Assembly (NCBI GenBank): GCA_964551375.1
Contig: CAZKBG010000001.1
Span: 747,329-779,328 of the forward strand
Origin: an uncultured archaeon
GTDB taxonomy: Archaea; Iainarchaeota; Iainarchaeia; Iainarchaeales; JAAZKV01
DNA: 32,000 nucleotides
Reading direction: 5' to 3'
Shown here: positions 3,175-32,000 of the stretch, piece after piece
How the letters are laid out: each line of letters opens with the position of its first letter
Numbering within the stretch: position 1 is the first letter of the stretch
Notes under the pieces: model-generated
The model's input: the letters and a program-made list of their open reading frames with translations, nothing else
The model's database searches: none
Told to the model about the DNA's origin: nothing
Position numbers and translations under genes: made by a program

Positions 3175-4983
3175 ATGCAAATTGAACTAGGAAAAGTTAA
3201 ATCAAAGGGACAGGGGACAATAGAATACCTGGTTATCATTGCGGTAGTGATAGTAATAGCGCTTGTTGTAGTTGGAATTATTTCAGGAATTTTTGGGGAC
3301 AGCTCCGCGCAGGTTTTAAGCGGCGGCGAAGCCCTTGGAAACGTATCAAATTCAGCAGGAATTAATATTGTTGATTCAGTTTCAGATCCAAGCGGAAACG
3401 GATTAATCACGCTTCAGAATTTATCCCCTGACACAGTGACTATTTCACAAATCACCACTCCGGAGGGCGGGGGCGGGACATTTAATACAAATGTTACTCC
3501 GGGCGATTCAAGAACGTTTTCACTCAACGATCTTAATGCAAGCTGCTTATGCTCGGCAGGCGAAGTGAGAAAAATATGCAATTTTATTTTTTCAATTACA
3601 ACTGCGTCAGGACTTGAAAAACAAGAAACTGTTTCAGTAACAGTTGACTGCTCAACTCAAAATGTGAATCCAGGAGATAGGGTAATTCCACCTCTTGACT
3701 CAACCGCGCCACAAGTTGCGCTGTCATCTCCAAGCGGAACCATTTTGTACGCAAATCCAATAACATTCACTTACACTGCGACCGACAATACTGCAGTGTC
3801 CAGCTGTTCGCTTCTAATAAACGGGGCAGTTGCCCAAACTGATTCCACAGCTCCGTTTGGTTCATTTACGCAGAGCATGACTCTTGGAAAGTACAATTGG
3901 TCAGTGTCCTGCCAAGATGCAAGAGCAAACACTGCTGTTCCAACAGCGGTTGACTTTAATGTATTTACAGCATTTCCTGTAGATTACTTCTTTTACAAAA
4001 ATTCATGGCCTACTTCTTCAATGACCAAGATTTCTTCAACAACAGGCGCGCTGCTTGCAACATTAAGCACAATGGACGCCGACGCATATCACACATTTTA
4101 CTTAGACTCTGATAGAAATTATTTGTGGGTTCCGCACCAGCACGGAAGCGCGACTCCGCAAGTGCCAAATTTAATAAAGATTGATTCAATATCAACAACA
4201 AAAATAGGGCAGTATTCCTCCCCATGCCCAGACATTTATTCAGGAATAGTTGACGGAAGCGGAAATGTATACCTTGGCGGAGGATGGAATTCAAGAGTAA
4301 TTTGCAAATACGACACTTCAGGAACAAATGTTTCTAACTTTACTCCTGATGCAAATATTACCACAACACTCGGACTCACAATCGACTCAAGCAGCAATTT
4401 ATGGATTTACGACCTTGGCGCAAACGGAACTCCTGCAACAACTACTGTGCAAAAGCTTGATTCTTCAACAGGAACAAAAATCCTTGAATTTGAAACAGAC
4501 TGCAACGCAGCAACATTTGCAATTCCGCTTGACGCATTCAAATTTGATTCACTTGGGCAATTATGGCTTGCGTGCGAAACTCCATCAAAAACATATGTTT
4601 ACAGCTCAACAGGGACAAAGCTTTACGAGTTTAACTTTAAGACATTAAGAATAACTCCTGACCAGTTGGGCAAAGTGTACCTGCTTTCCTCAGATAGAAA
4701 CATAATGAAAGTGGACGCATCAAACTATGCTATTCTTTGGAATAATCCATTAAGTTATGCTGATACAGTGACTCATTTCTTCATACAGCCGACTGAAGAC
4801 AAGGGACAGCTAATTGTCGGAAGACAGAATGCAAGCGGTTACATATCAACTTACGATACTAACACAGGGCTTAATGTGAACAACTGGACAAGCGGAAGCA
4901 CTCAAACAACGGGCTCAATAGCCGCACAAAGCCCTGATCCAAACGGATTCTACCACTGGATGCTTTATTCAGGAAAAAAATAA
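3175..4983 (+). CDS. Class III signal-peptide (archaeal pilin-like) protein with large extracellular Ig-like / beta-propeller-like region
   Basis: The N-terminus is MQIELGKVKSKG|QGTIEYLVIIAVVIVIALVV, i.e. a basic leader, G/Q cleavage context, an invariant E and a hydrophobic helix. An Ig-like segment follows (DSTAPQVALSSP...TATDNTAV). After it come repeated blade-like segments (YLWV, NVYLGGGW, NLWIYD, QLWLAC, KVYLLS). It starts 25 nt after fni. Confidence 0.75.
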   Translation: MQIELGKVKSKGQGTIEYLVIIAVVIVIALVVVGIISGIFGDSSAQVLSGGEALGNVSNSAGINIVDSVSDPSGNGLITLQNLSPDTVTISQITTPEGGGGTFNTNVTPGDSRTFSLNDLNASCLCSAGEVRKICNFIFSITTASGLEKQETVSVTVDCSTQNVNPGDRVIPPLDSTAPQVALSSPSGTILYANPITFTYTATDNTAVSSCSLLINGAVAQTDSTAPFGSFTQSMTLGKYNWSVSCQDARANTAVPTAVDFNVFTAFPVDYFFYKNSWPTSSMTKISSTTGALLATLSTMDADAYHTFYLDSDRNYLWVPHQHGSATPQVPNLIKIDSISTTKIGQYSSPCPDIYSGIVDGSGNVYLGGGWNSRVICKYDTSGTNVSNFTPDANITTTLGLTIDSSSNLWIYDLGANGTPATTTVQKLDSSTGTKILEFETDCNAATFAIPLDAFKFDSLGQLWLACETPSKTYVYSSTGTKLYEFNFKTLRITPDQLGKVYLLSSDRNIMKVDASNYAILWNNPLSYADTVTHFFIQPTEDKGQLIVGRQNASGYISTYDTNTGLNVNNWTSGSTQTTGSIAAQSPDPNGFYHWMLYSGKK

Positions 4984-8654: not shown

Positions 8655-8736
8655 GTTAATAATTTTAAACCTATTTGTTAATAACATTTGTAGTTTACGC
8701 GGGCTAAGTTATTAAGTCAAATTTAGCTGATTTGAC
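8655..8736. promoter_or_regulatory. Candidate operator sites in the ZIP / nikR divergent intergenic region
   Basis: GTTAATAA occurs at 8655 and 8677, a 22-bp (two-turn) spacing. The second copy is part of the palindrome GTTAATAAC. A perfect 7-bp inverted repeat GTCAAAT-N7-ATTTGAC lies at 8716-8736. GCTGATTT is directly repeated at 8725 and 8737. Confidence 0.3.
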
Positions 8737-8795
8737 TGCTGATTTAGAAGATATTAAAACAGGCAAAAATAAAAAAAGGGTTTTTGGTGATTTTT

Positions 8796-13914: not shown

Positions 13915-13933
13915 ATTTACGGATGGTTATAAC

Positions 13934-14878: not shown

Positions 14879-14906
14879 ATTAGGGCAAATATTTGGGGAT
14901 GAAAAA

Positions 14907-19475: not shown

Positions 19476-19559
19476 CAATATAGGTCTAAAAAATCGATAT
19501 ATTTTCTTATTCAAGATACTTTTAAATAAAGAAAAAGTGCTCATTTTGCAAGTGGTTTA

Positions 19560-20210
19560 ATGTTTGGCAGAAGAGGGCAGGGCACAATAGAATACCTTGT
19601 AATTATTGCAGTTGTGATAGTTTTAGCGCTTGTTGTTTCTTATTTTATGATGGGCTCGCTTGGCTCGGCTTCAGCAGCAGAAAAGGCGAGTCTTAAAGCA
19701 GCTTGGCAGTCAAAAGAAGTGGGAATTGCTGATTTTGCAGTTGATTCAAGCGGAAGCGGAAAAATCGCATTGATGAACAACTCTGGCGAATTTGTGAGAA
19801 TAAAGAAAGTTTATGTTGAAGGAGTGCTTGTTTATGACGGAACGCTTTCACTTGGAAATTTTGACAAATATGTAGTGGGCTCTTTTGCAAGCAATGTCGC
19901 AGCGTGCAGTGCGGACAGAAGATATAGAATAAGAATAGTTTACGAGGCTGAAAGCGGGCTTGAAGATGAAGTGAGCGGAGATTTGTACCCAGAATGCATG
20001 GCAAGCGCATCACAAATAAACACTTTGCTTTTAAGCATCCCAAATATTGACTCAAACATAAATATCGACTTGAATGTATCAACAGGACTTTTAGGACTTG
20101 CAAACTCACAGGCAGTGAATACAAGAAACCTTGACAATATTTCACAAGGCTCATCCCCAGACTCAAATGTAAAATATGACACTAATGTTGTGACATTAAA
20201 TACAGTGTGA
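19560..20210 (+). CDS. Class III signal-peptide (archaeal pilin-like) protein, 216 aa
   Basis: N-terminus MFGRRG|QGTIEYLVIIAVVIVLALVV matches the 3175 ORF at 19 of 20 positions. A TATA-like CTTTTAAATA lies ~40 nt upstream. Its stop is 4 nt before the giant ORF start. Confidence 0.8.
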   Translation: MFGRRGQGTIEYLVIIAVVIVLALVVSYFMMGSLGSASAAEKASLKAAWQSKEVGIADFAVDSSGSGKIALMNNSGEFVRIKKVYVEGVLVYDGTLSLGNFDKYVVGSFASNVAACSADRRYRIRIVYEAESGLEDEVSGDLYPECMASASQINTLLLSIPNIDSNINIDLNVSTGLLGLANSQAVNTRNLDNISQGSSPDSNVKYDTNVVTLNTV

Positions 20211-20214
20211 GTTT

Positions 20215-23200
20215 ATGGGTTATTCTAAATTTTTATTGGCTTTTATATTTATTCTTTTTTTGACAAATGTTTTTTCAGTAGACATTTCCACATGCGCTGA
20301 TTTATACAATATGGCTGAATCTTCAAGCTCATTTACCGTTACAACCAATATTGACTGCGCAGCATATACAGCCGCGGGAGATAAATTTGGAAACGCAATA
20401 AATTTTTACGGAACGCTTGACGGAGGAAACTATACTATAAGCAATATTTATGTAAATGCTCCAGGGGCAGATTATGTCGGAGGAATATTTAGAACAGTAA
20501 ACAGTGTCAGCAATTTAACTCTTCAAAATGTAAAAATATATGCAAGCAACAGAAGCTATGTCGGGGGGCTTGCGGGACAATCAAGCGGAACAATAACAAA
20601 TGTCACAGTAAGAGACTCAAATATTTTTGGAAACAACTTTGCAGGAATAGTTGTGGGAAACTCTTTAGGACAGGTGCTGAATTCGTCAGTTTATGATTCA
20701 AATATTTCCGCAAACCACGCAGTTGGAGGAATGGTCGGCAGAGTATATCATAACATGCTGAATCCAAGAGTAAGCAATGCGATAATCAACGGAGTTGGGG
20801 ATGCTTCAAATGCATATGGAGTGGGGGGAGTTGTTGGAACAATAGACACAACAAATAGAAGAATAGATTTGAATGATTCAGTTGTGTCGCTTGGAAATTT
20901 ATACGGAACATACTTTGTGGGCGGAGCAGTAGGGGTGGCAACATGCTATTACTGCTCAAATCCAGTAACAATGAACCGAATCACAGTTAATGCAAATCAA
21001 ATAACCGGAAATCAATACGTGGGCGGGCTTGCCGGGCACTTTCCATTGCCAATAACAATAACCGATTCAAACGCCACAGTGACTCAAATTACAGGAGACC
21101 GAGCAAATTCAGGCTCAATAGGAGGGCTTGTAGGGTACGCAAATGTTGTGGGGAGCAATTTATCCTTCACAGGAAATATTTCAATAAATTCCTCAGGCAG
21201 CACAACAGGGTATATCGGCGGGCTTGTCGGAAGAATTGATTCAGGCTCAATAAGAAACGCAAAAGCAGATGTAAACATTGACACTACGCTTGGCTCGGTA
21301 ACAATGGATAATGTCGGCGGAATTTTGGGATTTGATAATTCAAATACAACAATTACCGACGCAAACGTAGTCTTTGGCGTAATAAAAGGAAAAAATTCTG
21401 TCGGCGGAATTGCAGGAAATATTACAACTTCAATTGTTCGAACAAGAGTTACCGGAACAACACTTACCGGGGTAGGCGCTGATACTTATTATGGGACTGG
21501 CGGAGTTGCGGGAACTGCAAGAGCCGACAGCAGAAGAATTGATTTGAATGACTCAGTTGTTAACATTACTACTATTAACGGAACAAGATTTACTGGGGGA
21601 ATAGTCGGAGTGGGGTGGTGTTATTACTGCTCTAATCCAACAAATGTTTTCAACTCTTCTTTTACAGGCTCTGCTTTGAACGGTTATCAGTTTGCTGGAG
21701 GAATCGCAGGATATCTACCAAGCGGAACATCCCTAATTTCAAACTCAACGGCAAGAATTCCTCAAATGACTTTTTCAGGCTCTGACCCTTACTATTCAGG
21801 CGGAGTGGGAGGAGCAGTAATTAACATAACTAATTCAAATTTTATTGGAAATATTGACGTAAGCAAATCTTCCAACACAGGAAGCGGATACTTTGGGGGA
21901 ATTGCAGGACAGGCAAATTCAATCTCAGACTCATGGGCTGACACAAATCTTAACTTAATGCTCGGAACATATGCGAGTAATTATGTCGGCGGGCTCGTTG
22001 GAAATTACACAGGAAATATTACTTCCAGCTATGCAAAAGTCCACCATATTTGGGAACCAAGCACTTCAAACGGGACAAACATAGGGGGGCTTGCAGGGCA
22101 GGGGGCTACTGCGGGCGGATACATAATAGACTCAAATGTAACTTTTAATGATATTAACGGAGGAAACAGCGTAGGAGGGCTTGCAGGATATACTCAAGGA
22201 AATATTTTGCGAACAAAAGTAATTGGAAACACTTTAAGCGGAACAGGCGCCGATTCATATTATGGTGTCGGCGGGCTTGTCGGAACAATAAGAGCCGACA
22301 GCGGAAGAGTTGACCTAAATTATGCAAATGTAAATATTACTACAATTAACGGAACAAGATTTACGGGCGGAATTGTGGGAGCTGGATGGTGTTATTACTG
22401 CTCATACACAACAAATGTATTTAACTCAACTTTCACAGGCTCTGCTTTGAACGGTTATCAGTTTGCTGGAGGAATCGCAGGATGGCTTCCAAGCGGCGCA
22501 TCAAAAATATATGATTCAAATGCGCGAATTACAAGAATTTATCTTTCAGGTTCCAACCCATATTATTCAGGAGGAGTTGGCGGACAGGCATATGATATAA
22601 ACAATGCAAATTTTATAGGACTAATTGAGGTCAACAAATCTTCCAACTCAGGAGACGGATACTTTGGAGGACTTGCGGGACACGCAAACAGTATTTCATA
22701 TTCCTGGGCTGACACAAACCTTAACCTTCATCTTGGAGCATATGCGAGTAATTATGTCGGCGGGCTCGTTGGAAATTATACTGGAAACATTGACCACAGC
22801 TGGGTTAGGGTTCATCATATTTTTGAGCCTGCAACAAGCAATGGCGGAAGAGTGGGAGGACTTGCAGGGCAGGGGGCTACTGCGGGCGGATATATTTCTG
22901 ATTCGAACGCCGTGTTTACTGATATTAACGGTGGAAATGATGTTGGAGGGCTTGTTGGTTATGCGCAGGGAAATATTTTAAGAAATAAAGTTACTGGAAC
23001 AAATGTTAGAGGGACTGGTTATTTAGACGGTTATAGTTTGTATGGTGTTGGCGGATTAGTTGGAACAATGCAGGCAGGAGCGCGCTCCGATGTAAATGAT
23101 AATGTTGTTGATTTGAATTCGGTTGTTGCTACAAGTGGTGCCGGCGGACTAGTCGGCTCGCAGTATTGTTACAGCTGTTCTTCAAGCTACTGGATGGGAG

Positions 23201-26199
23201 TAAATAGATCTAAGGCTGATTTGAACTGGCTGATTGGGACTACGCACGTGGGCGGCTTAGTCGGACACATTCCGCTTACAGCAAGTTTTATTGCCGACTC
23301 AAACGCAAGGATTGTAAAAATTTTGGCCACAGGTTCCGACCCATATCACATTGCAGGACTAGCAGGAGCAAATGCAGGAGACATTATCAGGTCAAATTTT
23401 GTTGGAGAAATTGATGTTAGAAAAACAAGCGGAAGCGGAAACAACGGATACATTGCAGGACTTTCAGGGTCAGTTAGAAATATTTATTCCTCATGGGCTG
23501 ATACAAATATTAACATAATGCTTGGAACTTTTTCCACAAACTATGTCGGCGGATTAACAGGATACTATTCAGGAAATATTACTTCAAGCTGGGCAAGGGT
23601 TCACCATATTTGGGAGCCTGCAACAAGTAACGGCGGAAGAGTGGGAGGACTTGCAGGATATGGGGCTACTGCGGGCGGATATATTTCTGATTCGAACGCA
23701 ATGTTTACTGATATTAACGGTGGAAATGATGTCGGAGGGCTTGTTGGTTATGCGCAGGGAAATATTTTGAGAAATAAAGTTACTGGAACAAATGTCCGCG
23801 GCGCAGGACTTGCTGATGGGTACAGTGTATATGGTGTTGGCGGTTTAGTTGGAACTATGCAATCAGGAGCGCGCTCTGATGTAAATGATAATTCAGTTGA
23901 TTTAAATAGTGTCAGCGGAACAACGGGTGTTGGCGGGTTAGTGGGTTCGCAGTATTGTTACAGCTGTTCTTCAAGCTACTGGATGGGAGTAAACCGTTCA
24001 AGCGTTCGGTTAAATTTTTTGTCTGGAACAAATTATATTGGCGGAATTTTTGGGCACGCTCCATTGACAGGGACATTTATTTCTGACTCAAATGCAAGAA
24101 TTCCAAAGATTACTGCTTCAGGAACAGACCCATATCACGTTGGGGGATTATGCGGACAAACAGAAGGAGATGTGATAAGGTCAAACTTTATTGGAGAAAT
24201 TGATATTAGAAAAACAAGCGGGAGCGGGAATAACGGATACATTGCAGGACTATGCGGAGCAGTAAGAAATATTTCTTACTCGTGGGCTGATACAAACATT
24301 AACATTCTACTTGGGGGATATTCAACAAATTATGTCGGCGGATTAACAGGGTGGCTCAGAGGAAATATGACTTACAGCAATGCAATACTTGGGCATATTT
24401 GGGAACCTGCAACTTCAAACGGCGGAAGAGTAGGCGGATTAGTAGGGCAAGTAGCAGTAGCAGGCGCAAGCATTTCAGATTCAAATGTTATTTTTGTTGA
24501 TATTAACGGGGGAAATGATGTTGGGGGGCTTGTTGGTTATGCGCAGGGAAATGTTCTAAGGAGCAAAGTAACTGGAGTAAATGTTCGAGGCACAGGACTT
24601 GAAGATGGTTATAGTTTGTATGGTGTCGGCGGTTTGGTTGGGACTATGCAGTCAGGCGCGCGTTCTGATGTAAATGATTGTTCAGTTGATTTGAATAGTG
24701 TAGTGGGACTTGCAGGAGTTGGAGGAATAGTCGGCTCTCAGTATTGTTATAGTTGTTCTTCAAGCTACTGGATGGGAGTAAATAGAAGCGTTGCAAGAAT
24801 TAATTCATTAATCGGAGCCAAATACACAGGCGGAATTTTTGGGCACGCTCCATTAACAGGAAGTTTTGCAGCAGATTCAAATGCAATAATTACAAGAATT
24901 TACGCGGCGGGGAGCGACACTTATAATATTGGGGGAGTAGTAGGCGCAAACGCAGGAGATGTTATGCGCTCATATTTTATTGGAACAATTGATGTAAGCA
25001 AATCTTCAAACACTGCTAACGGCGGAATTGGAGGAGTTGCAGGGTCAGTGCGAAATGTATACCAATCCTACGCAGACACAAATATTGATTTTACATTAGG
25101 GAATTATTCAGGAAACAGCGTTGGGGGAGTTGCAGGAAGCGCGGTTACAATAAATGACTCCTACGTTAGAGCAGCTTATATTAAATCAACGCGCTCGGGC
25201 TCATATACAGGAGGACTTGTTGGGTACGCTCAAGGAAATATTAATCACTCATACGCGGCAGTTGCCGATGTAAATGGATATTCATCAGTTGGAGGGCTTG
25301 TGGGATACTTTACAAGCTCTTACACGGTTTCAAATTCATTCTTTGTGGGAAAAGCAAAAGCATCAAGCTCGGTTGATAATAATATTTTAGCAGGCGCAAA
25401 CGGAAGCGTATCAAACTGCTACTTTAACAACACAGGCTCAAGCGTTGTTTACAAATTAAATGCGGGCTCAACAACAGAACAAGACCCAAACGCGGGCTCA
25501 TCATTTTTCAAAGGCAATTCTACAAACCCTCCATTTGGAGCGGGAGTAGGCGACTGGAATTTTAGCGGAATATGGTATGTGTGGTCAAACGATTATCCTA
25601 AATTTGTTAAAAAACTGGCTTATTACACAAGCGGAATATTCATTTCTCCAGCAATCAATCTTGGCACCCCAAAAAGATTTGTTTCATTCGACTTCAACGG
25701 CAATTTTCCGAACGGAACAGATGTAAATTTCCAAATAAGAACCGCTGACTCAAACTCAAATCTTTCAAGCGAAGACTGGGTGGGGCCAAATGACAGCACA
25801 AGCGAATATTACAACAGCACAAGCACAAAAGCAATAACAACCGCGCATGATTTTGATTCATGGATGCAATGGAGAGCAAAACTTTATACAAACGACGAAA
25901 TAATCACTCCTACAATTTACTACGCTGATGTAAACACAGTGGGAATAGGAAGCGTAATATGGTATGGACTATCTGACGGGGCGCAGTGGAGCTCGTTTGA
26001 TTATAATGTGGTATCAACAAACGGCGGAAGCGTTGACTGGTTCTACGGGCCGTCAACAACAGGTCCATGGACTGCGACATCAATGCTTCTTAGCGGACAA
26101 AATGTTATAGGGATAAAAGCAGTAGCAAGCGCTTCAATTGACGCAAATACTCCAAATATAAGCCCTGATTTGAACGTGTCTTACTCAAGACAAAACTAA
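20215..26199 (+). CDS. Giant secreted GLUG-motif repeat protein (1994 aa), paralog 1
   Basis: Sec-type signal peptide MGYSKFLLAFIFILFLTNVFSV. N-terminal module I-x-T-C-x-D-L...DC...F-x-G-T-L-D-G-x-x-Y-x-I, then dozens of [YVI]-[VI]-G-G-[LI]-[VA]-G repeats. The C-terminal ~330 aa are non-repetitive (DWNFSGIWYVW...YPKF...WMQWRAKLYTND). N-x-S/T sequons are very dense. No C-terminal TM anchor was seen. Confidence 0.85.
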   Translation: MGYSKFLLAFIFILFLTNVFSVDISTCADLYNMAESSSSFTVTTNIDCAAYTAAGDKFGNAINFYGTLDGGNYTISNIYVNAPGADYVGGIFRTVNSVSNLTLQNVKIYASNRSYVGGLAGQSSGTITNVTVRDSNIFGNNFAGIVVGNSLGQVLNSSVYDSNISANHAVGGMVGRVYHNMLNPRVSNAIINGVGDASNAYGVGGVVGTIDTTNRRIDLNDSVVSLGNLYGTYFVGGAVGVATCYYCSNPVTMNRITVNANQITGNQYVGGLAGHFPLPITITDSNATVTQITGDRANSGSIGGLVGYANVVGSNLSFTGNISINSSGSTTGYIGGLVGRIDSGSIRNAKADVNIDTTLGSVTMDNVGGILGFDNSNTTITDANVVFGVIKGKNSVGGIAGNITTSIVRTRVTGTTLTGVGADTYYGTGGVAGTARADSRRIDLNDSVVNITTINGTRFTGGIVGVGWCYYCSNPTNVFNSSFTGSALNGYQFAGGIAGYLPSGTSLISNSTARIPQMTFSGSDPYYSGGVGGAVINITNSNFIGNIDVSKSSNTGSGYFGGIAGQANSISDSWADTNLNLMLGTYASNYVGGLVGNYTGNITSSYAKVHHIWEPSTSNGTNIGGLAGQGATAGGYIIDSNVTFNDINGGNSVGGLAGYTQGNILRTKVIGNTLSGTGADSYYGVGGLVGTIRADSGRVDLNYANVNITTINGTRFTGGIVGAGWCYYCSYTTNVFNSTFTGSALNGYQFAGGIAGWLPSGASKIYDSNARITRIYLSGSNPYYSGGVGGQAYDINNANFIGLIEVNKSSNSGDGYFGGLAGHANSISYSWADTNLNLHLGAYASNYVGGLVGNYTGNIDHSWVRVHHIFEPATSNGGRVGGLAGQGATAGGYISDSNAVFTDINGGNDVGGLVGYAQGNILRNKVTGTNVRGTGYLDGYSLYGVGGLVGTMQAGARSDVNDNVVDLNSVVATSGAGGLVGSQYCYSCSSSYWMGVNRSKADLNWLIGTTHVGGLVGHIPLTASFIADSNARIVKILATGSDPYHIAGLAGANAGDIIRSNFVGEIDVRKTSGSGNNGYIAGLSGSVRNIYSSWADTNINIMLGTFSTNYVGGLTGYYSGNITSSWARVHHIWEPATSNGGRVGGLAGYGATAGGYISDSNAMFTDINGGNDVGGLVGYAQGNILRNKVTGTNVRGAGLADGYSVYGVGGLVGTMQSGARSDVNDNSVDLNSVSGTTGVGGLVGSQYCYSCSSSYWMGVNRSSVRLNFLSGTNYIGGIFGHAPLTGTFISDSNARIPKITASGTDPYHVGGLCGQTEGDVIRSNFIGEIDIRKTSGSGNNGYIAGLCGAVRNISYSWADTNINILLGGYSTNYVGGLTGWLRGNMTYSNAILGHIWEPATSNGGRVGGLVGQVAVAGASISDSNVIFVDINGGNDVGGLVGYAQGNVLRSKVTGVNVRGTGLEDGYSLYGVGGLVGTMQSGARSDVNDCSVDLNSVVGLAGVGGIVGSQYCYSCSSSYWMGVNRSVARINSLIGAKYTGGIFGHAPLTGSFAADSNAIITRIYAAGSDTYNIGGVVGANAGDVMRSYFIGTIDVSKSSNTANGGIGGVAGSVRNVYQSYADTNIDFTLGNYSGNSVGGVAGSAVTINDSYVRAAYIKSTRSGSYTGGLVGYAQGNINHSYAAVADVNGYSSVGGLVGYFTSSYTVSNSFFVGKAKASSSVDNNILAGANGSVSNCYFNNTGSSVVYKLNAGSTTEQDPNAGSSFFKGNSTNPPFGAGVGDWNFSGIWYVWSNDYPKFVKKLAYYTSGIFISPAINLGTPKRFVSFDFNGNFPNGTDVNFQIRTADSNSNLSSEDWVGPNDSTSEYYNSTSTKAITTAHDFDSWMQWRAKLYTNDEIITPTIYYADVNTVGIGSVIWYGLSDGAQWSSFDYNVVSTNGGSVDWFYGPSTTGPWTATSMLLSGQNVIGIKAVASASIDANTPNISPDLNVSYSRQN
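21259..25100 (+). repeat. Intragenic super-repeat array (~257-263 codons per unit, five to six units)
   Basis: In-frame anchors (AKADVN / SWADTN / SYADTN) lie at 21259, 21931, 22702, 23491, 24280 and 25066. Spacings are 672, 771, 789, 789 and 786 nt. 22843-23006 differs from 23632-23795 at ~7 of 164 nt. 23158-23204 equals 23947-23993 (47 nt identical). 21664-21712 equals 22435-22483 (49 nt identical). Confidence 0.9.
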
Positions 26200-26220: not shown

Positions 26221-26240
26221 AAGGCTTTTTTAGCCTTTTG
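26221..26240 (+). terminator. Short hairpin plus T-rich tail after the giant ORF
   Basis: AAGGCT(26221-26)-TTTTT-AGCCTT(26232-37) followed by TTG, 22 nt after the stop. A TATA-like TTATATAAAA for ipk follows directly. Confidence 0.4.
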
Positions 26241-27083: not shown

Positions 27084-27134
27084 ATAAAGCTTTTATTTGA
27101 CTTAATCCTACTTTAACATTAAGCAGGGACTTAA
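27084..27134 (+). promoter_or_regulatory. Conserved promoter/leader of giant paralog 2 (AAAGCTTTTATTT...AAGCAGGGA-CTTAA)
   Basis: Aligns with 31003-31054 upstream of paralog 3. AAAGCTTTTATTT at 27086-27098 lies 49 nt before the start codon. AAGCAGGGAC lies immediately before the start. Confidence 0.6.
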
Positions 27135-30100
27135 GTGAACTCGAATTTTTTTAAACTAGCTGTTGCAGTCATTGTTCTATTAATTTCGGCAACCACTTTT
27201 TCAGCGACTATTTCTAATTGCACTCAGCTACAGGCAATAAGCGGAAGCACCGATTACAATCTTACAGCCGATGTTGACTGCACAGGAGTAGCATTTACTC
27301 CAATAGCATCATACACAGGAACGCTAAACGGAGTCGGATACAAAATAATCGGACTCAATATTAATCTTCCAACTACTGACAGAGTGGGATTATTTGGAAA
27401 TGTTTCAAGCTTCACAATCAAAAATATTATTTTTCAGGACGCAAATATAATCGGGCAGGATTATACAGGAGTAATTGTGGGAAGCGGCAGCCCGCTAATA
27501 TCAAACGTTTCAGTAATTAATGCAAGAGTAAATGGAAGATCTTATGTTGGAGGAATGGCTGGAAGTTATGGGCGAGCATCGTTTAATGGAAATCTGGTTA
27601 GCGGACTAAATTTAACTGCGACCGGAAGCTATTCCGGCGGAATGATTGGACAATACTCAGCAAGTAACAATCCTGCGGTGGATATTAATGATACAGTAGT
27701 TGACATAACTTCTATGACTGGAGCCCAGTATGTGGGCGGAGTGGTGGGATATAATTGGAACAGCTATAACGGTGTAACAAGATACTATCGAGCAAAAGTA
27801 ACAATAGGCACACTAACAGGTGGAAGCTATGTGGGTGGAATTGTAGGAAGACTTGGCGGAACAATTTCAGATTCAAATGTAACAGCTGGAAGAATATTTA
27901 CTTCAGATTATGCGGCTTATGTCGGGGGACTTGCTGGGGATAATCACGATTTAGGGTACGGCGGAGGAATTACAAACTCATGGGCAAGAGTAAAAATTGA
28001 CATAAATAAATTCAACGGAAGCGGAGCATCAGACGGGTATGTTGGAGGCTTAGCTGGCTCAAACTTAGGACTTGGAATTACTGATTCATGGGCAGATGCA
28101 AATATTGACGTATCACTTGGAACTTATTCAGGATATTATGTTGGAGGGTTAGCAGGAAAAAGCGGAACAATTACAAGATCTTACTCTACAGGGGCTTACA
28201 TAAGATCAACCGCTGGTTTTGGCGGATATGCTGGAGGACTTGCAGGACTATTGTCTGGAAGTCTAGTGGATTCTAATTCTTCAATTCCCTTAATTGACGG
28301 CGGAACAAATGATTACGTTGGAGGATTAATTGGACAATGGGCTGGCTCAAACGGGATTTTGAGAAGCAAATATGTTCCGGGATCAGTTGGAAATATAACT
28401 GCAAGAAACCGTGTTGGAGGAATAGCTGGAGATAGTTCTGCAGGTGGAGCAAGCGCAGATATTAATGATTGTGTAGTTGACTTTAACTCAATTTCAGGAA
28501 ATGATTATGTCGGCGGAATTGTGGGATACATGTGGAACGGCTCAACAGGAGTGAGCAGAATATATCGTGCACAATCAACAATAACAACGATGACTGGCGG
28601 AAGTTATATTGGCGGTGTTGTTGGAAGACTTGGAGGAATGCTATCTGACTCTAATGCAGTTATAAAAAATATTAATGCATCAGGATATGCTGCTTACGTT
28701 GGTGGATTAGCTGGAACTAATGCGAATTTGGGATACGGCGGAGGACTCGCACGCTCCTGGGCAAGAGTGCAGATTACAACAAACAAAACCAGCGGCTCAG
28801 GCGCATCGGACGGATACTTAGGCGGACTTGCCGGCTCAAACGCGGGATTTGCAATTACTGATTCATGGGCGGATGTAAACATTTACGCAAACGTTGGAAC
28901 TTATTCAGGATATTATGTTGGAGGGTTAGCAGGAAAAAGCGCGGGAGCATCAAACTCTTATTCAATAGGAACAATATTGCAATCAACAAAACAATTTAAC
29001 GGATATGTTGGAGGACTTATTGGAGAATCAAGCGGAAGCATCACTGATTCAAATTCTGCAATCCAAACAATTGACAGCGGAAGCGGAGCATATCAAGGAT
29101 CATCTGTTGGCGGATTAGTTGGAAACTGGGCTGGGGGCTCAAGCATTCTAAGATCAAAATATGTCGGGCGTAATATTATTGGAGGAGCGCAGACAGGCGG
29201 AATTGTTGGAAGAGTATACACAAGCTCAAATCCAAGCGCTGATGTGAATGACATTACAGTTGACGCAAATTCAGTAATTGGAACAAATCAAATTGGCGGA
29301 GCAATAGGATTCATGTGGAACTCATATAACAGAGTTTCAAGAATAGCAAGAGCAAAGGTGACGCTTAATTATTTGACAGGAACTGAAGAAGTGGGCGGAG
29401 TAATAGGAAGACATCAGGAAGGATATGCACTGATTGATTCAAACTCAGTGATTCCAAATATTTATGCATATAACACAGGAAAATATGTCGGCGGAATAGT
29501 TGGCTGGAAAGACAACGGCTCTTATGCTGATGCTATTTACATGTCAAACTGCTGGTCCATAAACCAAATTCAAACTAATAAATATAACGGAGGTTCGACT
29601 ACTGAAGGATATATTGGAGGACTTGCGGGAAAAAGCGACGGACCAATTTCTAATTCTTGGGCAGATGTAAATATTGACGCAAATGTAGGAACTTATTCAG
29701 GATATTATGTCGGGGGAATTGTTGGATATGGAAGCACAATTACAAACTCTTATGCAATTGGGGATTCAATTAATGCAGCAAAGGCAACCAATGGAAGCAT
29801 TGGCGGAATTGCCGGATATGCCACAACAATACTTAACACTTATTCAAGATTTACGCTTGTTAATGGGGGAACAACTTCTGGAACAGGCGTTGGAGGATTA
29901 ATTGGAACAGGCGCCGTAAACGCAACGATTACAAATTCTTATGTCATAGCAAATGATGTTAATGGATATACGCGAGTTGGGGGAATAGCAGGAGATTTAG
30001 GCTCAAATGCCACAGTGACGAATTCTTTTTTTGTCGGCAGAGTAAAAGCATCAAACAGTTATGACAATAATATCTATGGATACGCAGGGTATGACCAAAC

Positions 30101-30959
30101 GCAGGCAAACAAAGATATTAATTGTTATTTTACAAATCCAACTTTATCAAGCAATGTGTATAAAGAGGACAAAACTTCAACACCAACTTATGTAACTAAC
30201 GCAGGCGCAAGTTACTTCAAAGGAAAAACAAGTTTAATTCGAATAAAACCTCCATTCTCAAACAGCACAGCTCCTGACTGGAATTTTAATTATACTGCAC
30301 ACGCAGGAGTATGGTTTGGATGGAATGCAGAATACCCTCACTTCATTACAGACCCTAATCCATCACGAGTACCGATTGGTGAGTATCAATCAAAGGCAGT
30401 TAGTCTGGGCGGAAAAAAGAAATGCATTGCTTTGACAACTGATATGACAATAATTTCCGACAGCAATATTAAGATTCAGATTCAAGTTGCTGACAATAAT
30501 GTAACTTGGTGGACCACTCCAAACTGGGTTGGCCCTGATGGAACAAGCAATACTTATTATTCAAACGGAAATTACGCAGTTCCTGATGTTAATGCAGACG
30601 GGAACTGGGTAAGATGGAAAGCAATACTTTATTCAACAAGCGATTATTTGACTCCGTCGCTAAAGACAGTTGATATTAACTGCATACCGACTGGAGAAAT
30701 GGTGCTTGTGGCGAATGCTAGTAATGTTGTTTGGGAAGGATTTACGTATAATGCGTTAGTTGGGGGAATTCATGGTTCGCTTGAGTGGTTGTATAAGGTT
30801 GGGAATAATAGTTGGCTTAGTGCGGATAATAATGTTTTTTCTGTTTTGAATAGTGGGAATCCGCTTTATATTAAAGCAAAACTTACCGGGACAATAGATT
30901 CGAACGGGCCGATAATTGATAATAATGTAGTTGTGTCTTATAGACTAAATGTTAACTAA
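27135..30959 (+). CDS. Giant secreted GLUG-motif repeat protein (1274 aa), paralog 2
   Basis: GTG start. Signal peptide MNSNFFKLAVAVIVLLISATTFSA. It has the same N-terminal module as paralog 1 (I-S-N-C-T-Q-L...DC...Y-T-G-T-L-N-G-V-G-Y-K-I), many Y-V-G-G-[LI]-[AV]-G repeats, and a homologous C-terminal domain (DWNFNY...WFGWNAEYPHF...WVRWKAILYSTSDYLTPSL). Confidence 0.85.
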   Translation: MNSNFFKLAVAVIVLLISATTFSATISNCTQLQAISGSTDYNLTADVDCTGVAFTPIASYTGTLNGVGYKIIGLNINLPTTDRVGLFGNVSSFTIKNIIFQDANIIGQDYTGVIVGSGSPLISNVSVINARVNGRSYVGGMAGSYGRASFNGNLVSGLNLTATGSYSGGMIGQYSASNNPAVDINDTVVDITSMTGAQYVGGVVGYNWNSYNGVTRYYRAKVTIGTLTGGSYVGGIVGRLGGTISDSNVTAGRIFTSDYAAYVGGLAGDNHDLGYGGGITNSWARVKIDINKFNGSGASDGYVGGLAGSNLGLGITDSWADANIDVSLGTYSGYYVGGLAGKSGTITRSYSTGAYIRSTAGFGGYAGGLAGLLSGSLVDSNSSIPLIDGGTNDYVGGLIGQWAGSNGILRSKYVPGSVGNITARNRVGGIAGDSSAGGASADINDCVVDFNSISGNDYVGGIVGYMWNGSTGVSRIYRAQSTITTMTGGSYIGGVVGRLGGMLSDSNAVIKNINASGYAAYVGGLAGTNANLGYGGGLARSWARVQITTNKTSGSGASDGYLGGLAGSNAGFAITDSWADVNIYANVGTYSGYYVGGLAGKSAGASNSYSIGTILQSTKQFNGYVGGLIGESSGSITDSNSAIQTIDSGSGAYQGSSVGGLVGNWAGGSSILRSKYVGRNIIGGAQTGGIVGRVYTSSNPSADVNDITVDANSVIGTNQIGGAIGFMWNSYNRVSRIARAKVTLNYLTGTEEVGGVIGRHQEGYALIDSNSVIPNIYAYNTGKYVGGIVGWKDNGSYADAIYMSNCWSINQIQTNKYNGGSTTEGYIGGLAGKSDGPISNSWADVNIDANVGTYSGYYVGGIVGYGSTITNSYAIGDSINAAKATNGSIGGIAGYATTILNTYSRFTLVNGGTTSGTGVGGLIGTGAVNATITNSYVIANDVNGYTRVGGIAGDLGSNATVTNSFFVGRVKASNSYDNNIYGYAGYDQTQANKDINCYFTNPTLSSNVYKEDKTSTPTYVTNAGASYFKGKTSLIRIKPPFSNSTAPDWNFNYTAHAGVWFGWNAEYPHFITDPNPSRVPIGEYQSKAVSLGGKKKCIALTTDMTIISDSNIKIQIQVADNNVTWWTTPNWVGPDGTSNTYYSNGNYAVPDVNADGNWVRWKAILYSTSDYLTPSLKTVDINCIPTGEMVLVANASNVVWEGFTYNALVGGIHGSLEWLYKVGNNSWLSADNNVFSVLNSGNPLYIKAKLTGTIDSNGPIIDNNVVVSYRLNVN
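27978..29700 (+). repeat. Intragenic super-repeats in paralog 2 (three units, ~259-264 codons)
   Basis: In-frame anchors ([DN]SWAD[AV]NI) lie at 28083, 28860 and 29652, with spacings of 777 and 792 nt. 28119-28164 equals 28896-28941 (46 nt identical). Confidence 0.85.
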
Positions 30960-31002: not shown

Positions 31003-31054
31003 AAAAAGCTTTTATTTAACTTAAACCTAATTCTAGCACAAAGCAGGGAACTTA
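31003..31054 (+). promoter_or_regulatory. Conserved promoter/leader of giant paralog 3
   Basis: AAAGCTTTTATTT at 31005-31017 lies 50 nt before the ATG. AAGCAGGGAACTTAA abuts the start. A small GGCA-ATT-TGCC hairpin plus TTGTTTT at 30977-30994 lies upstream, after the paralog 2 stop. Confidence 0.6.
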
Positions 31055-32000
31055 ATGATGGCAAATTTTAACAAATTACTTTTAGGGATCTTATTAATTT
31101 TAATAATAAGTCAGGTTTTTGCATTTAGCGGCGGAACTGGAACAAGCGGAGACCCTTACAGAGTAAATGCCTGCGCAGATATTGACTGGATGGATACTAA
31201 TGCATCTACAAAATCAGCATACTATGTTCTTGATTCAAATGTGGACTGCGGAGTATCGCCTTATAATACAGGAAGCGGGTTTACTCAAGTAACAGGATTT
31301 GCAGGATCGCTTGACGGACAAGGATACTGGGTAAAAAACTTAATGATTTACCTTCCAACAACAAATAATGTTTCACCATTTGCTGCAGGAAGCGCGTTCA
31401 CAATAAAAAATATTGGATTTGATGTAAATATCACAGGACAGGATTATGTATCCGGATTCATGACTGATTATTTGAATAGGGACTTAAATAACATAAAAGT
31501 AAGCGGAACAATAATAGGGAGAAATTATGTGGGCGGAATTACATCAAGAAGCAATGCGGGAATAAAAATCACAAACAGCTCTGTTGACTTGACTTTGATA
31601 AGCGGAAATGAATATGTAGGGGGACTTGCCGCATACTATGGAGGGGATTTCAATTACTGCACAATAAAAATAAACCGAATAGAAGGGCAGTTTTCTGTGG
31701 GCGGAGCAAGCGGATGGATGTTTAATGGAAGCAATGGAGTGTCCTATATTCAAAATACAACTGCTGACATAAACCTACTAAAAGTAACACACACTTCAGC
31801 TAATGGCTATTACACTTTAGTCGGAGGATTAGTCGGAAGATTTTCTTCAAGCGGATTTATAAGAAGCGCAAATGTGCGAGTAAATTTAATTGATGTCAAT
31901 AATGCGACTGCAGACCCTGGAAAAATAGGGGGGCTTGTCGGAGGACATGACCGCGCAGGCGGATATCTTTATGATGTAAATTTTACAGGAACAATAAATT
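31055..32000 (+). CDS. GLUG-motif repeat protein, paralog 3 (5' part only; open to the window end)
   Basis: Not in the ORF track because no stop is reached. I translated it by hand and found no stops from ATG 31055 to 31999. It reads MMANFNKLLLGILLILIISQVFAFSGGTGTSGDPYRVNACADI...DC...FAGSLDGQGYWVKNL. Repeats YVGGIT, YVGGLAA, LVGGLVG and IGGLVGG follow. Confidence 0.8.
   Translation, partial: MMANFNKLLLGILLILIISQVFAFSGGTGTSGDPYRVNACADIDWMDTNASTKSAYYVLDSNVDCGVSPYNTGSGFTQVTGFAGSLDGQGYWVKNLMIYLPTTNNVSPFAAGSAFTIKNIGFDVNITGQDYVSGFMTDYLNRDLNNIKVSGTIIGRNYVGGITSRSNAGIKITNSSVDLTLISGNEYVGGLAAYYGGDFNYCTIKINRIEGQFSVGGASGWMFNGSNGVSYIQNTTADINLLKVTHTSANGYYTLVGGLVGRFSSSGFIRSANVRVNLIDVNNATADPGKIGGLVGGHDRAGGYLYDVNFTGTIN

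What the first reader, a model, noticed from the sequence alone, without database searches (positions are those of the whole stretch)
19560..26199. Pilin-like protein translationally coupled (4-nt gap) to a 1994-aa GLUG-repeat giant: candidate fibre-plus-adhesin cassette
A 216-aa class III signal-peptide protein has its own TATA-like promoter. Its stop (TGA at 20208-20210) lies 4 nt before the ATG of a 6-kb ORF encoding a Sec-secreted, beta-helix-like GLUG-repeat protein. That giant has no recognisable membrane anchor, PGF-CTERM motif or S-layer-type C-terminus. Tight coupling suggests the two act together, for instance with the pilin-like protein anchoring or presenting the giant on a type IV pilus-like fibre. 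I do not recognise this pairing as a described archaeal surface system. In a host-dependent archaeon it would be a good candidate for the attachment apparatus.
Basis: inference. Interest (0 to 1): 0.7.

Follow-up and report, generated by a model that had tools for sequence, protein, structure and literature searches.

The report
Pilin-like genes paired with giant adhesins
In a small-genome DPANN archaeon, a short type IV pilin-like protein is encoded 4 bases upstream of an anchorless 1,994-residue repeat surface protein, and because the same pairing recurs in every known relative, the small protein probably docks the giant onto the cell surface or a pilus, although no binding has been shown.

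Summary
ORF 19560-20210 (216 aa) has a class III (prepilin) signal above Pfam's cut-off and a pilin-like predicted fold. Its TGA stop lies 4 nt before ORF 20215-26199 (1994 aa). That giant has a Sec-type N-terminus, 43 GLUG-like motifs and no second hydrophobic segment or PGF-type sorting signal.

- The pilin family is tiny: nine full-length members. Every member with usable context lies within 58 nt, on the same strand, of a giant Sec-signal repeat protein, in four different genomic contexts and in both gene orders.
- Pilin tail subtype tracks giant subtype.
- The pair is part of a larger locus: pilA-G1 | IPK | G2-G3-G4-pilB. A second class III signal gene sits just beyond the window end.
- Short pilins with the same N-terminus lie inside ATPase + 2x platform T4P loci in relatives.

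Not shown: physical binding, filament incorporation, pilus machinery in this genome, or host dependence. Three of at least five GLUG paralogues lack an adjacent pilin gene.

Best reading (about 0.4): an adaptor minor pilin that presents an anchorless adhesin, analogous to PilY1 with its minor pilins or CofJ with CofB. This is a new variant of a known kind, of moderate interest.

The parts
19521..19536 (+). TATA-like promoter element TTTAAATAAAGAAAAA upstream of the pilin-like gene
   Evidence: Read directly. It occurs once in the window. A near-identical element (TTTAAATAAAGAAAAAA) lies upstream of the L001 orthologue. Promoter function is inferred.
19560..20210 (+). pilA: 216-aa class III signal (type IV pilin-like) protein with a family-specific C-terminal tail
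   Evidence: ORF. PF04021 at 29.9 bits, above the 23.7 cut-off. Nine full-length homologues at 42-100% identity. The AF2 fold gives top Foldseek hits to archaeal T4P pilins 8q30, 8fk7 and 6nav.
19560..19577 (+). Predicted leader peptide MFGRRG, cleaved before Q7 by a prepilin peptidase
   Evidence: Alignment to the PF04021 motif, with an invariant QGTIEY. Cleavage itself is inferred.
19578..19658 (+). Hydrophobic N-terminal helix (residues 7-33)
   Evidence: Hydropathy segment 5-39. Helix 9-33 in the AF2 model.
19719..19985 (+). Pilin beta-sandwich domain (residues 54-142), flanked by the conserved Cys116 and Cys146
   Evidence: Block-mean pLDDT about 78-92. C116 and C146 are nearly invariant.
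19998..20207 (+). C-terminal tail of about 70 aa (residues 147-216), N/S/D-rich. It comes in three subtypes that track the partner giant and is the candidate docking element.
   Evidence: pLDDT below 50. Absent from the ~153-aa short pilins. Subtypes A, B and C are seen in the alignment. A docking role is inferred.
20211..20214 (+). 4-nt spacer gttt between the pilA stop and the G1 start
   Evidence: The same spacing occurs on the P0002 contig.
20215..26199 (+). G1: 1994-aa GLUG-repeat giant with no membrane anchor
   Evidence: Pfam Glug at 34.5 bits. A single hydrophobic segment, residues 1-28. 116 homologues at E<=1e-10, all large surface-type proteins.
20215..20277 (+). Sec-type signal peptide of G1 (MGYSKFLLAFIFILFLTNVFS|VD)
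   Evidence: Inspection plus hydropathy. The paralogues have equivalent N-termini. No predictor was run.
20563..25308 (+). GLUG solenoid-like repeat region (residues ~117-1698): 43 GGxxG motifs about 32 aa apart, and six ~260-aa super-repeats each carrying one CxxC
   Evidence: The beta-solenoid fold is inferred. No PDB sequence match.
25618..26196 (+). C-terminal module of G1: two tandem beta-sandwich domains (residues ~1802-1904 and ~1909-1994)
   Evidence: AF2 mean pLDDT 77.8; the two domains are at about 89-95 and about 69-85. The C-terminal query gave 379 hits at E<=1e-3, most matching through domain 1, in many extracellular architectures. No Pfam match and no PDB fold match at E<0.01.
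26221..26237 (+). Terminator-like hairpin AAGGCTTTTTTAGCCTT followed by a T-run, closing the pilA-G1 unit
27135..30959 (+). G2: 1274-aa GLUG paralogue with its own upstream promoter-like motif (AAGCTTTTATTT at 27087)
31055..32000 (+). G3: start of a 1525-aa GLUG paralogue (P0021). L009 shows it is followed by G4 (1541 aa) and then a second class III signal gene, pilB.
   Evidence: L009 overlaps the window exactly from 30459. Gene calls. The pilB start is at L009 9959.
3175..4983 (+). 602-aa modular pilin paralogue: class III signal and pilin domain homologous to pilA, then a Big_7 Ig domain and a propeller-like region
   Evidence: BLASTP of pilA 5-198 against p602 11-210 gives 29% identity, E 1.7e-16.

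Best explanation
pilA and G1 form a two-gene surface cassette in which the small protein is an adaptor pilin for the giant.

Shown:
- pilA is a class III signal, type IV pilin-like protein. It belongs to the same N-terminal class as pilins found in ATPase + two-platform (System-1/Epd-like) T4P loci of relatives.
- It shares one promoter-to-terminator unit with G1, 4 nt apart.
- G1 has a Sec-type N-terminus and no anchor.
- Adjacency of this pilin family to a giant Sec-signal repeat protein is conserved across contexts and gene orders, and pilin tail subtype tracks giant subtype.

Inferred:
- A prepilin peptidase cleaves pilA at G6|Q7. The hydrophobic helix then sits in the membrane and is incorporated, as a low-abundance (minor or tip) subunit, into a type IV pilus-like fibre or a short pseudopilus.
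- The family-specific ~70-residue C-terminal tail, which is disordered on its own, binds the cognate giant after the giant's Sec export. The giant is a rod-like GLUG solenoid ending in two beta-sandwich modules, and it is displayed in this way as an adhesin.
- The genome appears to carry two such adaptors, one per giant subtype: pilA upstream of the G1 type, and pilB downstream of the G2-G4 type.
For: - Pilin identity: PF04021 above its cut-off, and an invariant QGTIEY. The AF2 model has an N-terminal helix plus a beta-sandwich, and the best full-length Foldseek hits are archaeal T4P pilins and archaellins.
- Operon: 4-nt gap, no internal terminator, TATA-like element upstream, hairpin downstream.
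- Anchorless giant.
- Synteny. L001 and the P0002 contig keep the same order and the same mevalonate context; the L001 giant is 61.5% identical to G1. In L004-6/L011 a 1501-aa GLUG giant is followed after 15 nt by the pilin, beside POR genes. In L007/L010 a GLUG C-terminus is followed after 56 nt by the pilin. In L002/3 the pilin is followed after 7 nt by a Sec-signal Gly-rich repeat protein. In L009, G4 is followed after 58 nt by pilB in this same genome.
- Subtype tracking. Type-A tails go with G1-type giants. Type-C tails go with G2-4-type giants (C-termini 47-66% identical among themselves, 28-32% to G1). Type-B tails go with the non-GLUG partner.
- The tail is absent from the short ~153-aa pilins of the same class.
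- Link to pilus machinery: P0010 and P0012, which share the KGQGTIEYLVI N-terminal core, lie next to T2SSE + 2x T2SSF genes, together with minor-pilin-like genes and large Sec-signal LamG proteins. One of these is a 5073-aa giant starting 147 nt after the pilin.
- Precedent in the same window: the 602-aa paralogue carries its extra domains fused in cis.
- Literature: large PilY-like proteins in archaeal T4P loci are predicted tip adhesins (PMC4858521). Accessory adhesin and beta-helical proteins of unclear role are noted in archaeal TFF loci, and System 1 is reported in DPANN (10.64898/2026.04.22.720090).
Against: - There is no direct or predicted evidence of binding. No complex model could be run.
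- The tail has no detectable similarity to the giants, and no pilin-GLUG fusion exists among 119 GLUG homologues.
- G2, G3 and P0018 have no directly adjacent pilin gene and carry the same kind of C-terminal module, so giants may not need an adaptor.
- The cassette is not next to ATPase, platform or peptidase genes, and those genes were not located in this genome.
- The family is very small (nine members, about four lineages), so conserved adjacency could partly reflect shared ancestry.
- More distant GLUG giants such as P0022 have no pilin neighbour.
- pilB is seen only for 38 codons, and no full-length pilA-like homologue from this contig other than pilA itself appeared. pilB may therefore diverge after the N-terminus.
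Confidence: 0.4

Rival explanations
1. Co-expression without contact. The pilin-like protein and the giant are both surface components needed under the same conditions and so share an operon. The giant attaches by itself, for example through its C-terminal beta-sandwich modules binding S-layer or glycan, or it is released. The pilin serves an ordinary pilus.
For: G2, G3 and P0018 carry the same kind of C-terminal module and have no adjacent pilin. The first C-terminal sandwich is a widespread extracellular module found after Kelch, NHL, LamG and BNR domains. No tail-giant similarity and no fusion were found. G2 and G3 have their own promoter motif.
Against: Adjacency survives gene-order inversion and four changes of neighbourhood at only 42-59% pilin identity. 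The tail subtype changes together with the partner type, including a switch to a non-GLUG partner. The tail exists only in this giant-associated family and not in the short pilins.
Confidence: 0.3
2. Membrane-stub anchor of a surface coat, not a pilus. The pilin-like protein is never polymerised. Its N-terminal helix simply stays in the membrane and tethers the giants, which form a glycosylated envelope layer. This would be functionally like SlaB anchoring SlaA in Sulfolobales.
For: There are at least five abundant-looking paralogous giants in a genome of about 1 Mb. G1 has 47 N-glycosylation sequons. The cassette lies away from any assembly genes in the 32-kb window. Class III signal proteins that are not classical pilus subunits are known, such as the bindosome substrate-binding proteins (10.64898/2026.04.22.720090).
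Against: The same N-terminal class sits inside bona fide T4P loci in relatives. E at +5 and the invariant QGTIEY are typical of assembled pilins (established knowledge for type IV pilins). No S-layer family hit was found in the giants. The repeat architecture suggests a long rod rather than a lattice former.
Confidence: 0.2
3. The small protein is an export, folding or assembly factor (for example a nucleator or cap for the solenoid) rather than a structural anchor.
For: Tight gene coupling suggests stoichiometric or co-translational production. The tail is disordered and could template folding.
Against: It has a complete and conserved pilin architecture with a disulfide-bonded sandwich. No similarity to known chaperones was found. 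The tail does not resemble a solenoid rung.
Confidence: 0.06
4. Chance adjacency, with no functional link.
For: Short intergenic gaps are common in this compact genome.
Against: In six of six informative contig groups plus pilB, the pilin is within 58 nt of a giant on the same strand. With about five giants per roughly 1000 genes (the gene count is a rough assumption for a ~1 Mb genome), repeated chance adjacency in independent contexts is very unlikely.
Confidence: 0.02

Closest known systems
PilY1 plus minor pilins (FimU-PilVWXE) at the tip of bacterial type IVa pili
   Same: A large Sec-exported adhesin without its own anchor is encoded next to minor pilin genes and displayed through them (established knowledge; cited as an analogy for archaea in PMC4858521).
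   Different: PilY1 has a beta-propeller C-terminal domain, and archaeal PilY-like proteins have DUF2341/LamG domains. G1 has neither. Here there is one pilin partner with a special tail, and the cassette is detached from the machinery genes. No experimental data exist.
CofJ-CofB and TcpF-TcpB of type IVb pili (a secreted protein that docks on a tip minor pilin)
   Same: A Sec-exported protein encoded in the pilin operon is bound by a minor pilin through a flexible segment (my recollection of the published ETEC and V. cholerae work; not re-read here).
   Different: Those secreted partners are small soluble colonisation factors and the flexible segment is on the secreted protein. Here the partner has 1994 residues and the flexible segment is on the pilin.
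Archaeal TFF System 1 / Epd-type pili (Methanococcales, Thermococcales, some DPANN)
   Same: The same PF04021-type signal with Q at +1. Relatives carrying this N-terminus have an ATPase plus two platform genes, multiple pilins and large accessory secreted proteins (10.64898/2026.04.22.720090; PMC4858521).
   Different: The cassette in this window is separate from any assembly genes. Its partner is a GLUG protein, and its pilin has an extra ~70-aa tail.
Modular type IV pilins (S. sanguinis PilB, PMC8179133; the window's own 602-aa protein)
   Same: A pilin module is used to display an adhesive module on a filament.
   Different: In those proteins the adhesive module is fused in cis. Here it would be a separate polypeptide recruited in trans, and no fusion was found among 119 GLUG homologues.
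GLUG-motif giant surface proteins of bacteria and haloarchaea
   Same: The Glug repeats and the size class. Homologues include M26 peptidase-N-domain, InlB B-repeat, T9SS and PGF-pre-PGF proteins.
   Different: Those carry their own anchoring or sorting domains (T9SS C-terminal domain, PGF-type, SLH). G1 has none and is pilin-linked.
Pectin-lyase-like parallel beta-helix surface proteins of the DPANN archaeon Nanobdella aerobiophila (10.1101/2023.10.27.564410)
   Same: Large, heavily N-glycosylated beta-helix surface proteins of a DPANN archaeon. Their locus tags lie close to archaellin-like genes (MJ1_0451 between MJ1_0449 and MJ1_0453; MJ1_0776 near MJ1_0772 and MJ1_0773).
   Different: Homology to G1 was not tested. 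The proximity is read from locus tags only. The authors propose glycan degradation, not pilin docking.
SlaA/SlaB two-component S-layer of Sulfolobales
   Same: A large anchorless outer protein and a small membrane-anchored partner are encoded side by side (established knowledge).
   Different: SlaB uses a C-terminal transmembrane helix and a coiled coil, not a class III signal pilin fold. No sequence relationship was seen.

Membership tests
Type IV pilin-like (class III signal peptide) proteins | Short basic leader, G/A at -1, conserved +1 to +5 motif and a hydrophobic N-terminal helix | tested here: met
   PF04021 at 29.9 bits against 23.7. MFGRRG|QGTIEYLVIIAVVIVLALVV, with invariant QGTIEY. 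Hydropathy segment 5-39.
Type IV pilin-like (class III signal peptide) proteins | Lollipop fold: N-terminal alpha-helix plus a beta-rich globular domain | tested here: met
   AF2 gives helix 9-33 and a sandwich at 54-142 with block-mean pLDDT about 78-92. The top Foldseek hits 8q30, 8fk7 and 6nav have E 1e-4 to 7e-4 but low TM-scores of 0.25-0.39.
Type IV pilin-like (class III signal peptide) proteins | A cognate prepilin peptidase (A24 family) in the same genome, and actual cleavage | not testable with these tools
   The 946-kb source contig could not be retrieved. Only the window plus L008 and L009 are readable.
Type IV pilin-like (class III signal peptide) proteins | An assembly ATPase and platform protein that polymerise it | tested here: inconclusive
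   None in the 32-kb window. In relatives, pilins with the same N-terminus adjoin T2SSE + 2x T2SSF.
GLUG-motif repeat surface proteins | Pfam Glug motif above its gathering score, repeated periodically | tested here: met
   34.5 bits against 20.5. 43 GGxxG motifs with a median spacing of 32 aa.
GLUG-motif repeat surface proteins | Beta-solenoid fold of the repeat region | not tested
No PDB sequence match.
PilY1-like pilus tip adhesins | PilY1 C-terminal beta-propeller or DUF2341/LamG domain | tested here: not met
   Only Glug was detected in G1. The C-terminal module has no Pfam hit and models as two beta-sandwiches.
PilY1-like pilus tip adhesins | Encoded with minor pilins and displayed through them | tested here: inconclusive
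   Adjacency to one pilin-like gene is conserved. Display was not tested.
Archaeosortase / PGF-CTERM (or other C-terminal TM) anchored surface proteins | C-terminal tripartite signal: motif, hydrophobic helix, basic tail | tested here: not met
   No hydrophobic segment after residue 28. No PGF, PEF or VPxxxP motif. The C-terminus is ...DLNVSYSRQN.
Archaeal lipoproteins | A lipobox Cys immediately after the signal h-region | tested here: not met
   The first Cys (C27) lies 7 residues past the h-region in the context DISTC. It pairs in spacing with C48, as in the paralogues' N-terminal cap. By inspection only.
SlaA/SlaB-type S-layer pair | Sequence families of SlaA/SlaB, and a partner with a C-terminal TM and coiled coil | tested here: not met
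   No such family hits. The partner is an N-terminally anchored pilin fold.

The most novel reading that the evidence does not exclude
DPANN (Iainarchaeota-like) archaea use dedicated 'adaptor pilins'. These are minor type IV pilins whose partner-specific C-terminal tails load interchangeable, anchorless giant adhesins (two GLUG subtypes and a Gly-rich type) in trans onto a type IV filament. The result would be a modular and rapidly diversifying attachment apparatus, with the two adaptor genes bracketing the adhesin array.
Probability: 0.25. Interest if true: 0.7.

Novelty: new variant of a known kind. Interest (0 to 1): 0.5.

Why it matters
How ultrasmall DPANN archaea hold on to surfaces or partner cells is largely unknown, and their giant surface proteins usually have no obvious way of staying on the cell. 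A conserved cassette of a tail-bearing pilin and an anchorless giant gives a concrete, testable answer: an adaptor pilin recruits the adhesin in trans. It names the exact proteins and the ~70-residue tail to test. It would also extend the principle of a minor pilin presenting a separate secreted adhesin from bacterial T4P to archaea, with an unrelated adhesin fold. If the rival of co-expression without contact is right, the finding reduces to an ordinary surface-protein operon.

Tried and rejected
- Tail as a mimic of a solenoid rung (DSNINIDLNVSTG compared with ADTNINIMLGTFS). An hmmsearch of a nine-sequence tail profile against eight giants gave only scores of 3 bits or less. Rejected.
- Rosetta-stone fusion. 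None of 119 GLUG homologues has a class III-like N-terminus.
- Widening the family. A metagenome scan with the signal-less pilin alignment only re-found the L007 and L004 lineages. The genome-collection scan found only L001.
- Retrieving the source contig. P0001 is not on record, so pilus machinery and the full pilB could not be examined.
- PDB by sequence. No match for the pilin profile or for the first 1000 residues of G1.
- Foldseek of the C-terminal module against PDB. Nothing below E 0.01. Against BFVD there were only low-TM similarities to phage tail and tip-attachment proteins, treated as generic beta-sandwich resemblance.
- DNA-level tandem repeats in the giants. None found by TRF, so the repeats are diverged and visible only at protein level.
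- The L002 partner as a cryptic GLUG protein. BLASTP E 0.33 and no Pfam hit. It is treated as a different family.
- Lipobox or PGF-CTERM anchors in G1. Not present.
- Rfam and tRNA scans of the window. Nothing found.
- Literature. No paper combines GLUG, archaea and pilin.
The start is 31055.
Full report
OBSERVATION

The junction reads ...acagtgTGAgtttATG, a 4-nt spacer. It is the shortest positive intergenic gap of the 20 junctions in the window. The scan finds no terminator-like site between the genes, but finds a hairpin plus T-run at 26221-26237, directly after the giant's stop. A TATA-like element TTTAAATAAAGAAAAA lies at 19521-19536 and recurs in near-identical form (TTTAAATAAAGAAAAAA) upstream of the L001 orthologue. 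The pair therefore looks like a self-contained bicistronic unit. Translational coupling is plausible but unproven.

THE SMALL PROTEIN (pilA)

It matches Pfam Class_IIIsignal above the curated cut-off (29.9 against 23.7 bits). It matches Pilin_N just below its cut-off (23.0 against 25.2). In an alignment of 12 relatives, Q7 G8 T9 I10 E11 Y12 are invariant and two cysteines (C116, C146) are nearly so. In the register of the Pfam motif as I recall it (Q = +1), the predicted cleavage is MFGRRG|QGTIEYL, which puts E at +5.

An AF2 model built on that alignment has mean pLDDT 65.5. It shows helix 9-33, a second helix 39-51, and a confident beta-sandwich at 54-142 (block-mean pLDDT about 78-92). The last ~70 residues have pLDDT below 50. 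The best full-length Foldseek matches in the PDB are the S. acidocaldarius AAP pilin (8q30, E 1.1e-4), the Pyrobaculum type IV pilus (8fk7) and the S. islandicus pilus (6nav), followed by archaellins. TM-scores are low (0.25-0.39) because the helix is modelled at a different angle. I conclude that it is a genuine type IV pilin-like protein with an unusual C-terminal tail. Short ~153-aa pilins of the same N-terminal class (P0010, P0012, P0013) lack that tail.

THE GIANT (G1)

Pfam sees only the Glug motif. The protein is rich in Gly, Ser and Asn (16%, 11% and 10%) and has 47 N-x-S/T sequons. Its only hydrophobic segment is residues 1-28. There are 43 GGxxG-type motifs between residues 117 and 1693, about 32 aa apart. 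They are organised in six super-repeats of about 260 aa (autocorrelation peaks at 263 and 257), each with one CxxC. At DNA level the repeats are too diverged for TRF.

After a conserved cap (NSFFVG...NCYF...YFKG...PF...DWNF...W..W..YP.F), the C-terminus forms two tandem beta-sandwiches. AF2 mean pLDDT is 77.8, with the first domain at about 89-95. They have no Pfam hit and no PDB fold match below E 0.01. A search with the C-terminal 260 aa gave 379 proteins at E<=1e-3, most of them matching through the first sandwich, which follows Kelch, NHL, LamG or BNR domains in those proteins. I read it as a generic extracellular module. There is no PGF, PEF or VPxxxP signal and no C-terminal helix. The conserved C27 is not in a lipobox context. 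'Sec-secreted' and 'beta-helix-like' remain inferences from sequence pattern.

CONTEXT

The window is an archaeal-type mevalonate pathway cluster. It encodes polyprenyl synthase, IDI2-like FMN_dh, HMG-CoA reductase, HMG-CoA synthase, thiolase with a DUF35-like partner, two GHMP kinases, UbiX, UbiD, and the AcnX large and small subunits. After the pilA-G1 unit comes isopentenyl phosphate kinase (NF040647, 165.8 bits against a 120-bit cut-off).

HMG-CoA reductase is closest among named sequences to Candidatus Diapherotrites (67%), Candidatus Iainarchaeum (65%) and Micrarchaeota (about 60-62%). The relatives' largest contigs are 0.8-1.0 Mb, and the source contig is 946 kb. The organism is thus a DPANN archaeon of the Iainarchaeota type. 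Host dependence is an assumption, not a result.

THE LOCUS IS LARGER THAN THE FINDING

The window holds two further GLUG genes: G2 at 27135-30959 (1274 aa), and G3 starting at 31055. It also holds a 602-aa protein (3175-4983) whose first ~200 residues are homologous to pilA (29% identity, E 1.7e-16). That protein continues into a Big_7 Ig domain and a propeller-like region, which makes it a modular pilin.

Logan contig L009 overlaps the window exactly from 30459. It shows G3 (1525 aa), then G4 (1541 aa), then, 58 nt after G4's stop, a second class III signal gene, pilB. It begins MHAKKRGQGTIEYLVIIAVVIVLALVTSYFMMGSLGSA. The contig stops there, inside a 31-nt exact repeat of pilA, which could explain the assembly break. 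The architecture is therefore pilA-G1 | IPK | G2-G3-G4-pilB. A fifth paralogue, P0018 (1500 aa), lies elsewhere without a pilin neighbour.

The pilA family is tiny. There are nine full-length members among 5.8 billion clustered proteins, and scans of the genome and metagenome contig collections added no new lineage. Every member with readable flanks adjoins a giant Sec-signal repeat protein on the same strand.
- L001 (78% identity) and the P0002 contig keep the window arrangement, including the AcnX genes upstream and, for P0002, the 4-nt gap. The L001 giant is 61.5% identical to G1.
- L004/5/6/L011 (42%) have the opposite order: a 1501-aa GLUG giant, 15 nt, then the pilin, next to pyruvate:ferredoxin oxidoreductase genes.
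- L007/L010 (48%) have a GLUG C-terminus, 56 nt, then the pilin, in yet another context.
- L002/L003 (59%) have the pilin, 7 nt, then a Sec-signal Gly-rich repeat protein that is not detectably GLUG (BLASTP E 0.33, no Pfam hit).

The tails fall into three subtypes that follow the partner. Type A sits upstream of G1-type giants. Type C sits downstream of G2-4-type giants, whose C-termini are 47-66% identical to one another and 28-32% identical to G1. Type B sits upstream of the Gly-rich protein. The G4-to-pilB spacer resembles the L007 spacer, which suggests that pilB is the type-C member of this genome. This is unverified, because one search returned no second full-length homologue from the 946-kb contig.

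LINK TO PILUS MACHINERY

I could not read the rest of the genome. In relatives, however, short pilins with the same KGQGTIEYLVI N-terminal core lie directly after a T2SSE ATPase and two T2SSF platform genes. Several class III-like small proteins and a large LamG protein lie nearby. In L013 a 5073-aa Sec-signal giant starts 147 nt after the pilin. An ATPase plus two platform genes is the layout that Sivabalasarma and Albers describe for TFF System 1 in methanogens and DPANN (10.64898/2026.04.22.720090). Makarova et al. predicted large PilY-like proteins in such loci to be tip adhesins (PMC4858521).

MECHANISM

The best-supported reading (about 0.4) is that pilA is an adaptor minor pilin. A prepilin peptidase cleaves it. 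Its helix is held in the membrane or in a type IV filament, and its tail binds the Sec-exported, anchorless giant, which is thereby displayed as an adhesin. There would be one adaptor per giant subtype.

What is shown: pilin identity, the operon structure, the lack of an anchor, conserved and order-independent adjacency, and subtype tracking. What is inferred: binding, the role of the tail, filament incorporation and the adhesive function.

The rivals are:
- co-expression without contact (0.3), favoured by G2, G3 and P0018 having no adjacent pilin and by the generic C-terminal module;
- a non-polymerised membrane stub anchoring a surface coat, analogous to SlaB/SlaA (0.2);
- an assembly factor (0.06);
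- chance adjacency (0.02).

NEGATIVE RESULTS

- The tail does not resemble a solenoid rung.
- No pilin-GLUG fusion exists among 119 homologues.
- The nearest outside GLUG giant, P0022, has no pilin neighbour, so the pairing is lineage-restricted.
- There are no PDB sequence matches.
- BFVD matches of the C-terminal module to phage tail and tip-attachment proteins have low TM-scores.
- Two fold libraries were unavailable.

COMPARISON AND NOVELTY

GLUG giants are common surface proteins, but their homologues usually carry their own sorting or anchoring domains, such as T9SS, PGF-type, SLH or InlB repeats. Minor pilins that present a separate secreted adhesin are known in bacteria (PilY1; CofJ/TcpF) and predicted in archaeal T4P loci. 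Modular pilins fuse the adhesin in cis (PMC8179133). What I could not find described is this combination: a tail-bearing pilin family dedicated to anchorless GLUG or Gly-rich giants, detached from the machinery genes, with two adaptors bracketing an adhesin array. No paper in the library combines GLUG, archaea and pilin.

In Nanobdella aerobiophila, beta-helix surface proteins have locus tags next to archaellin-like genes (10.1101/2023.10.27.564410). This hints that the association may be broader in DPANN, but it is a lead only.

I rate the finding a new variant of a known kind, with interest 0.5. The synteny evidence is clean and the hypothesis is sharply testable. Against that, the family is narrow and every mechanistic step beyond co-transcription is inferred.

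Noticed in passing
L009 9959-10072 (equivalent to window coordinate ~40417 onward, beyond the window end): A second class III signal gene (pilB, MHAKKRGQGTIEYLVIIAVVIVLALVTSYFMMGSLGSA...) starts 58 nt after the fourth GLUG giant, so the GLUG array is bracketed by pilin-like genes. Only 38 codons are visible, because the contig ends in a 31-nt exact repeat of window 19641-19671.
   Followed up: partly
window 3175-4983 (+): A 602-aa modular pilin: a class III signal and a pilin domain homologous to pilA (29% identity over ~200 aa), followed by a Big_7 Ig domain and a propeller-like region. It is wedged between the IDI2-like gene and a Fer4_20/Pyr_redox gene in the mevalonate cluster.
   Followed up: partly
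window 972-27077: An archaeal-type mevalonate pathway cluster (AcnX, UbiD/UbiX and IPK included) is interleaved with surface-protein genes. IPK is isolated between G1 and G2. The same insertion of pilA-G1 after AcnX is seen in L001 and on the P0002 contig.
   Followed up: partly
window 13886-14878 and 14826-15836 (+): Two adjacent, apparently overlapping GHMP kinase genes both score above the mevalonate kinase cut-off (TIGR00549, 184 and 221 bits). One may be the phosphomevalonate kinase.
   Followed up: no
window 10409-11173 and 13147-13914 (+): Two ORFs of about 255 aa inside the mevalonate cluster have no Pfam or NCBIfam hit. ORFs of the same size and in the same position exist in L001 (847-1611, 3559-4317).
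   Followed up: no
window 27087-27134 and 31006-31054: G2 and G3 share an upstream motif AAGCTTTTATTT(G/A)ACTTAA, followed by AAGCAGGGA just before the start codon. It is absent upstream of G1, G4 and P0018. It is probably a promoter plus a ribosome-binding element.
   Followed up: partly
window 20215-26199, G1 residues 244, 469, 726, 985, 1248, 1511: There is one CxxC pair per ~260-aa super-repeat in G1 (CYYCS / CYSCS). It is absent from G2. It could be a disulfide staple or a metal site.
   Followed up: no
L002 10692-12077 (also L003): The partner of the type-B pilin is a Sec-signal Gly-rich repeat protein (GGAGYGGAGGAGSG...GGYGGGAIRL...). It has no Pfam hit and no similarity to GLUG giants, and it is cut at 462 aa.
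   Followed up: partly
L012 4665-16106 and L013 229-17795: System-1-like T4P loci in relatives: T2SSE, two T2SSF genes, PF04021 pilins with the same N-terminus, four to five class III-like small proteins and a LamG_3 protein. L013 adds a 5073-aa giant (LamG_3, Big_13) right after the pilin.
   Followed up: partly
L014 8001-18505: The nearest GLUG giant outside this lineage (P0022) lies in a tandem GLUG pair with no class III signal neighbour.
   Followed up: yes
window 7857-9173: A ZIP zinc transporter gene on the minus strand and a NikR-like regulator gene on the plus strand interrupt the otherwise co-oriented mevalonate cluster.
   Followed up: no
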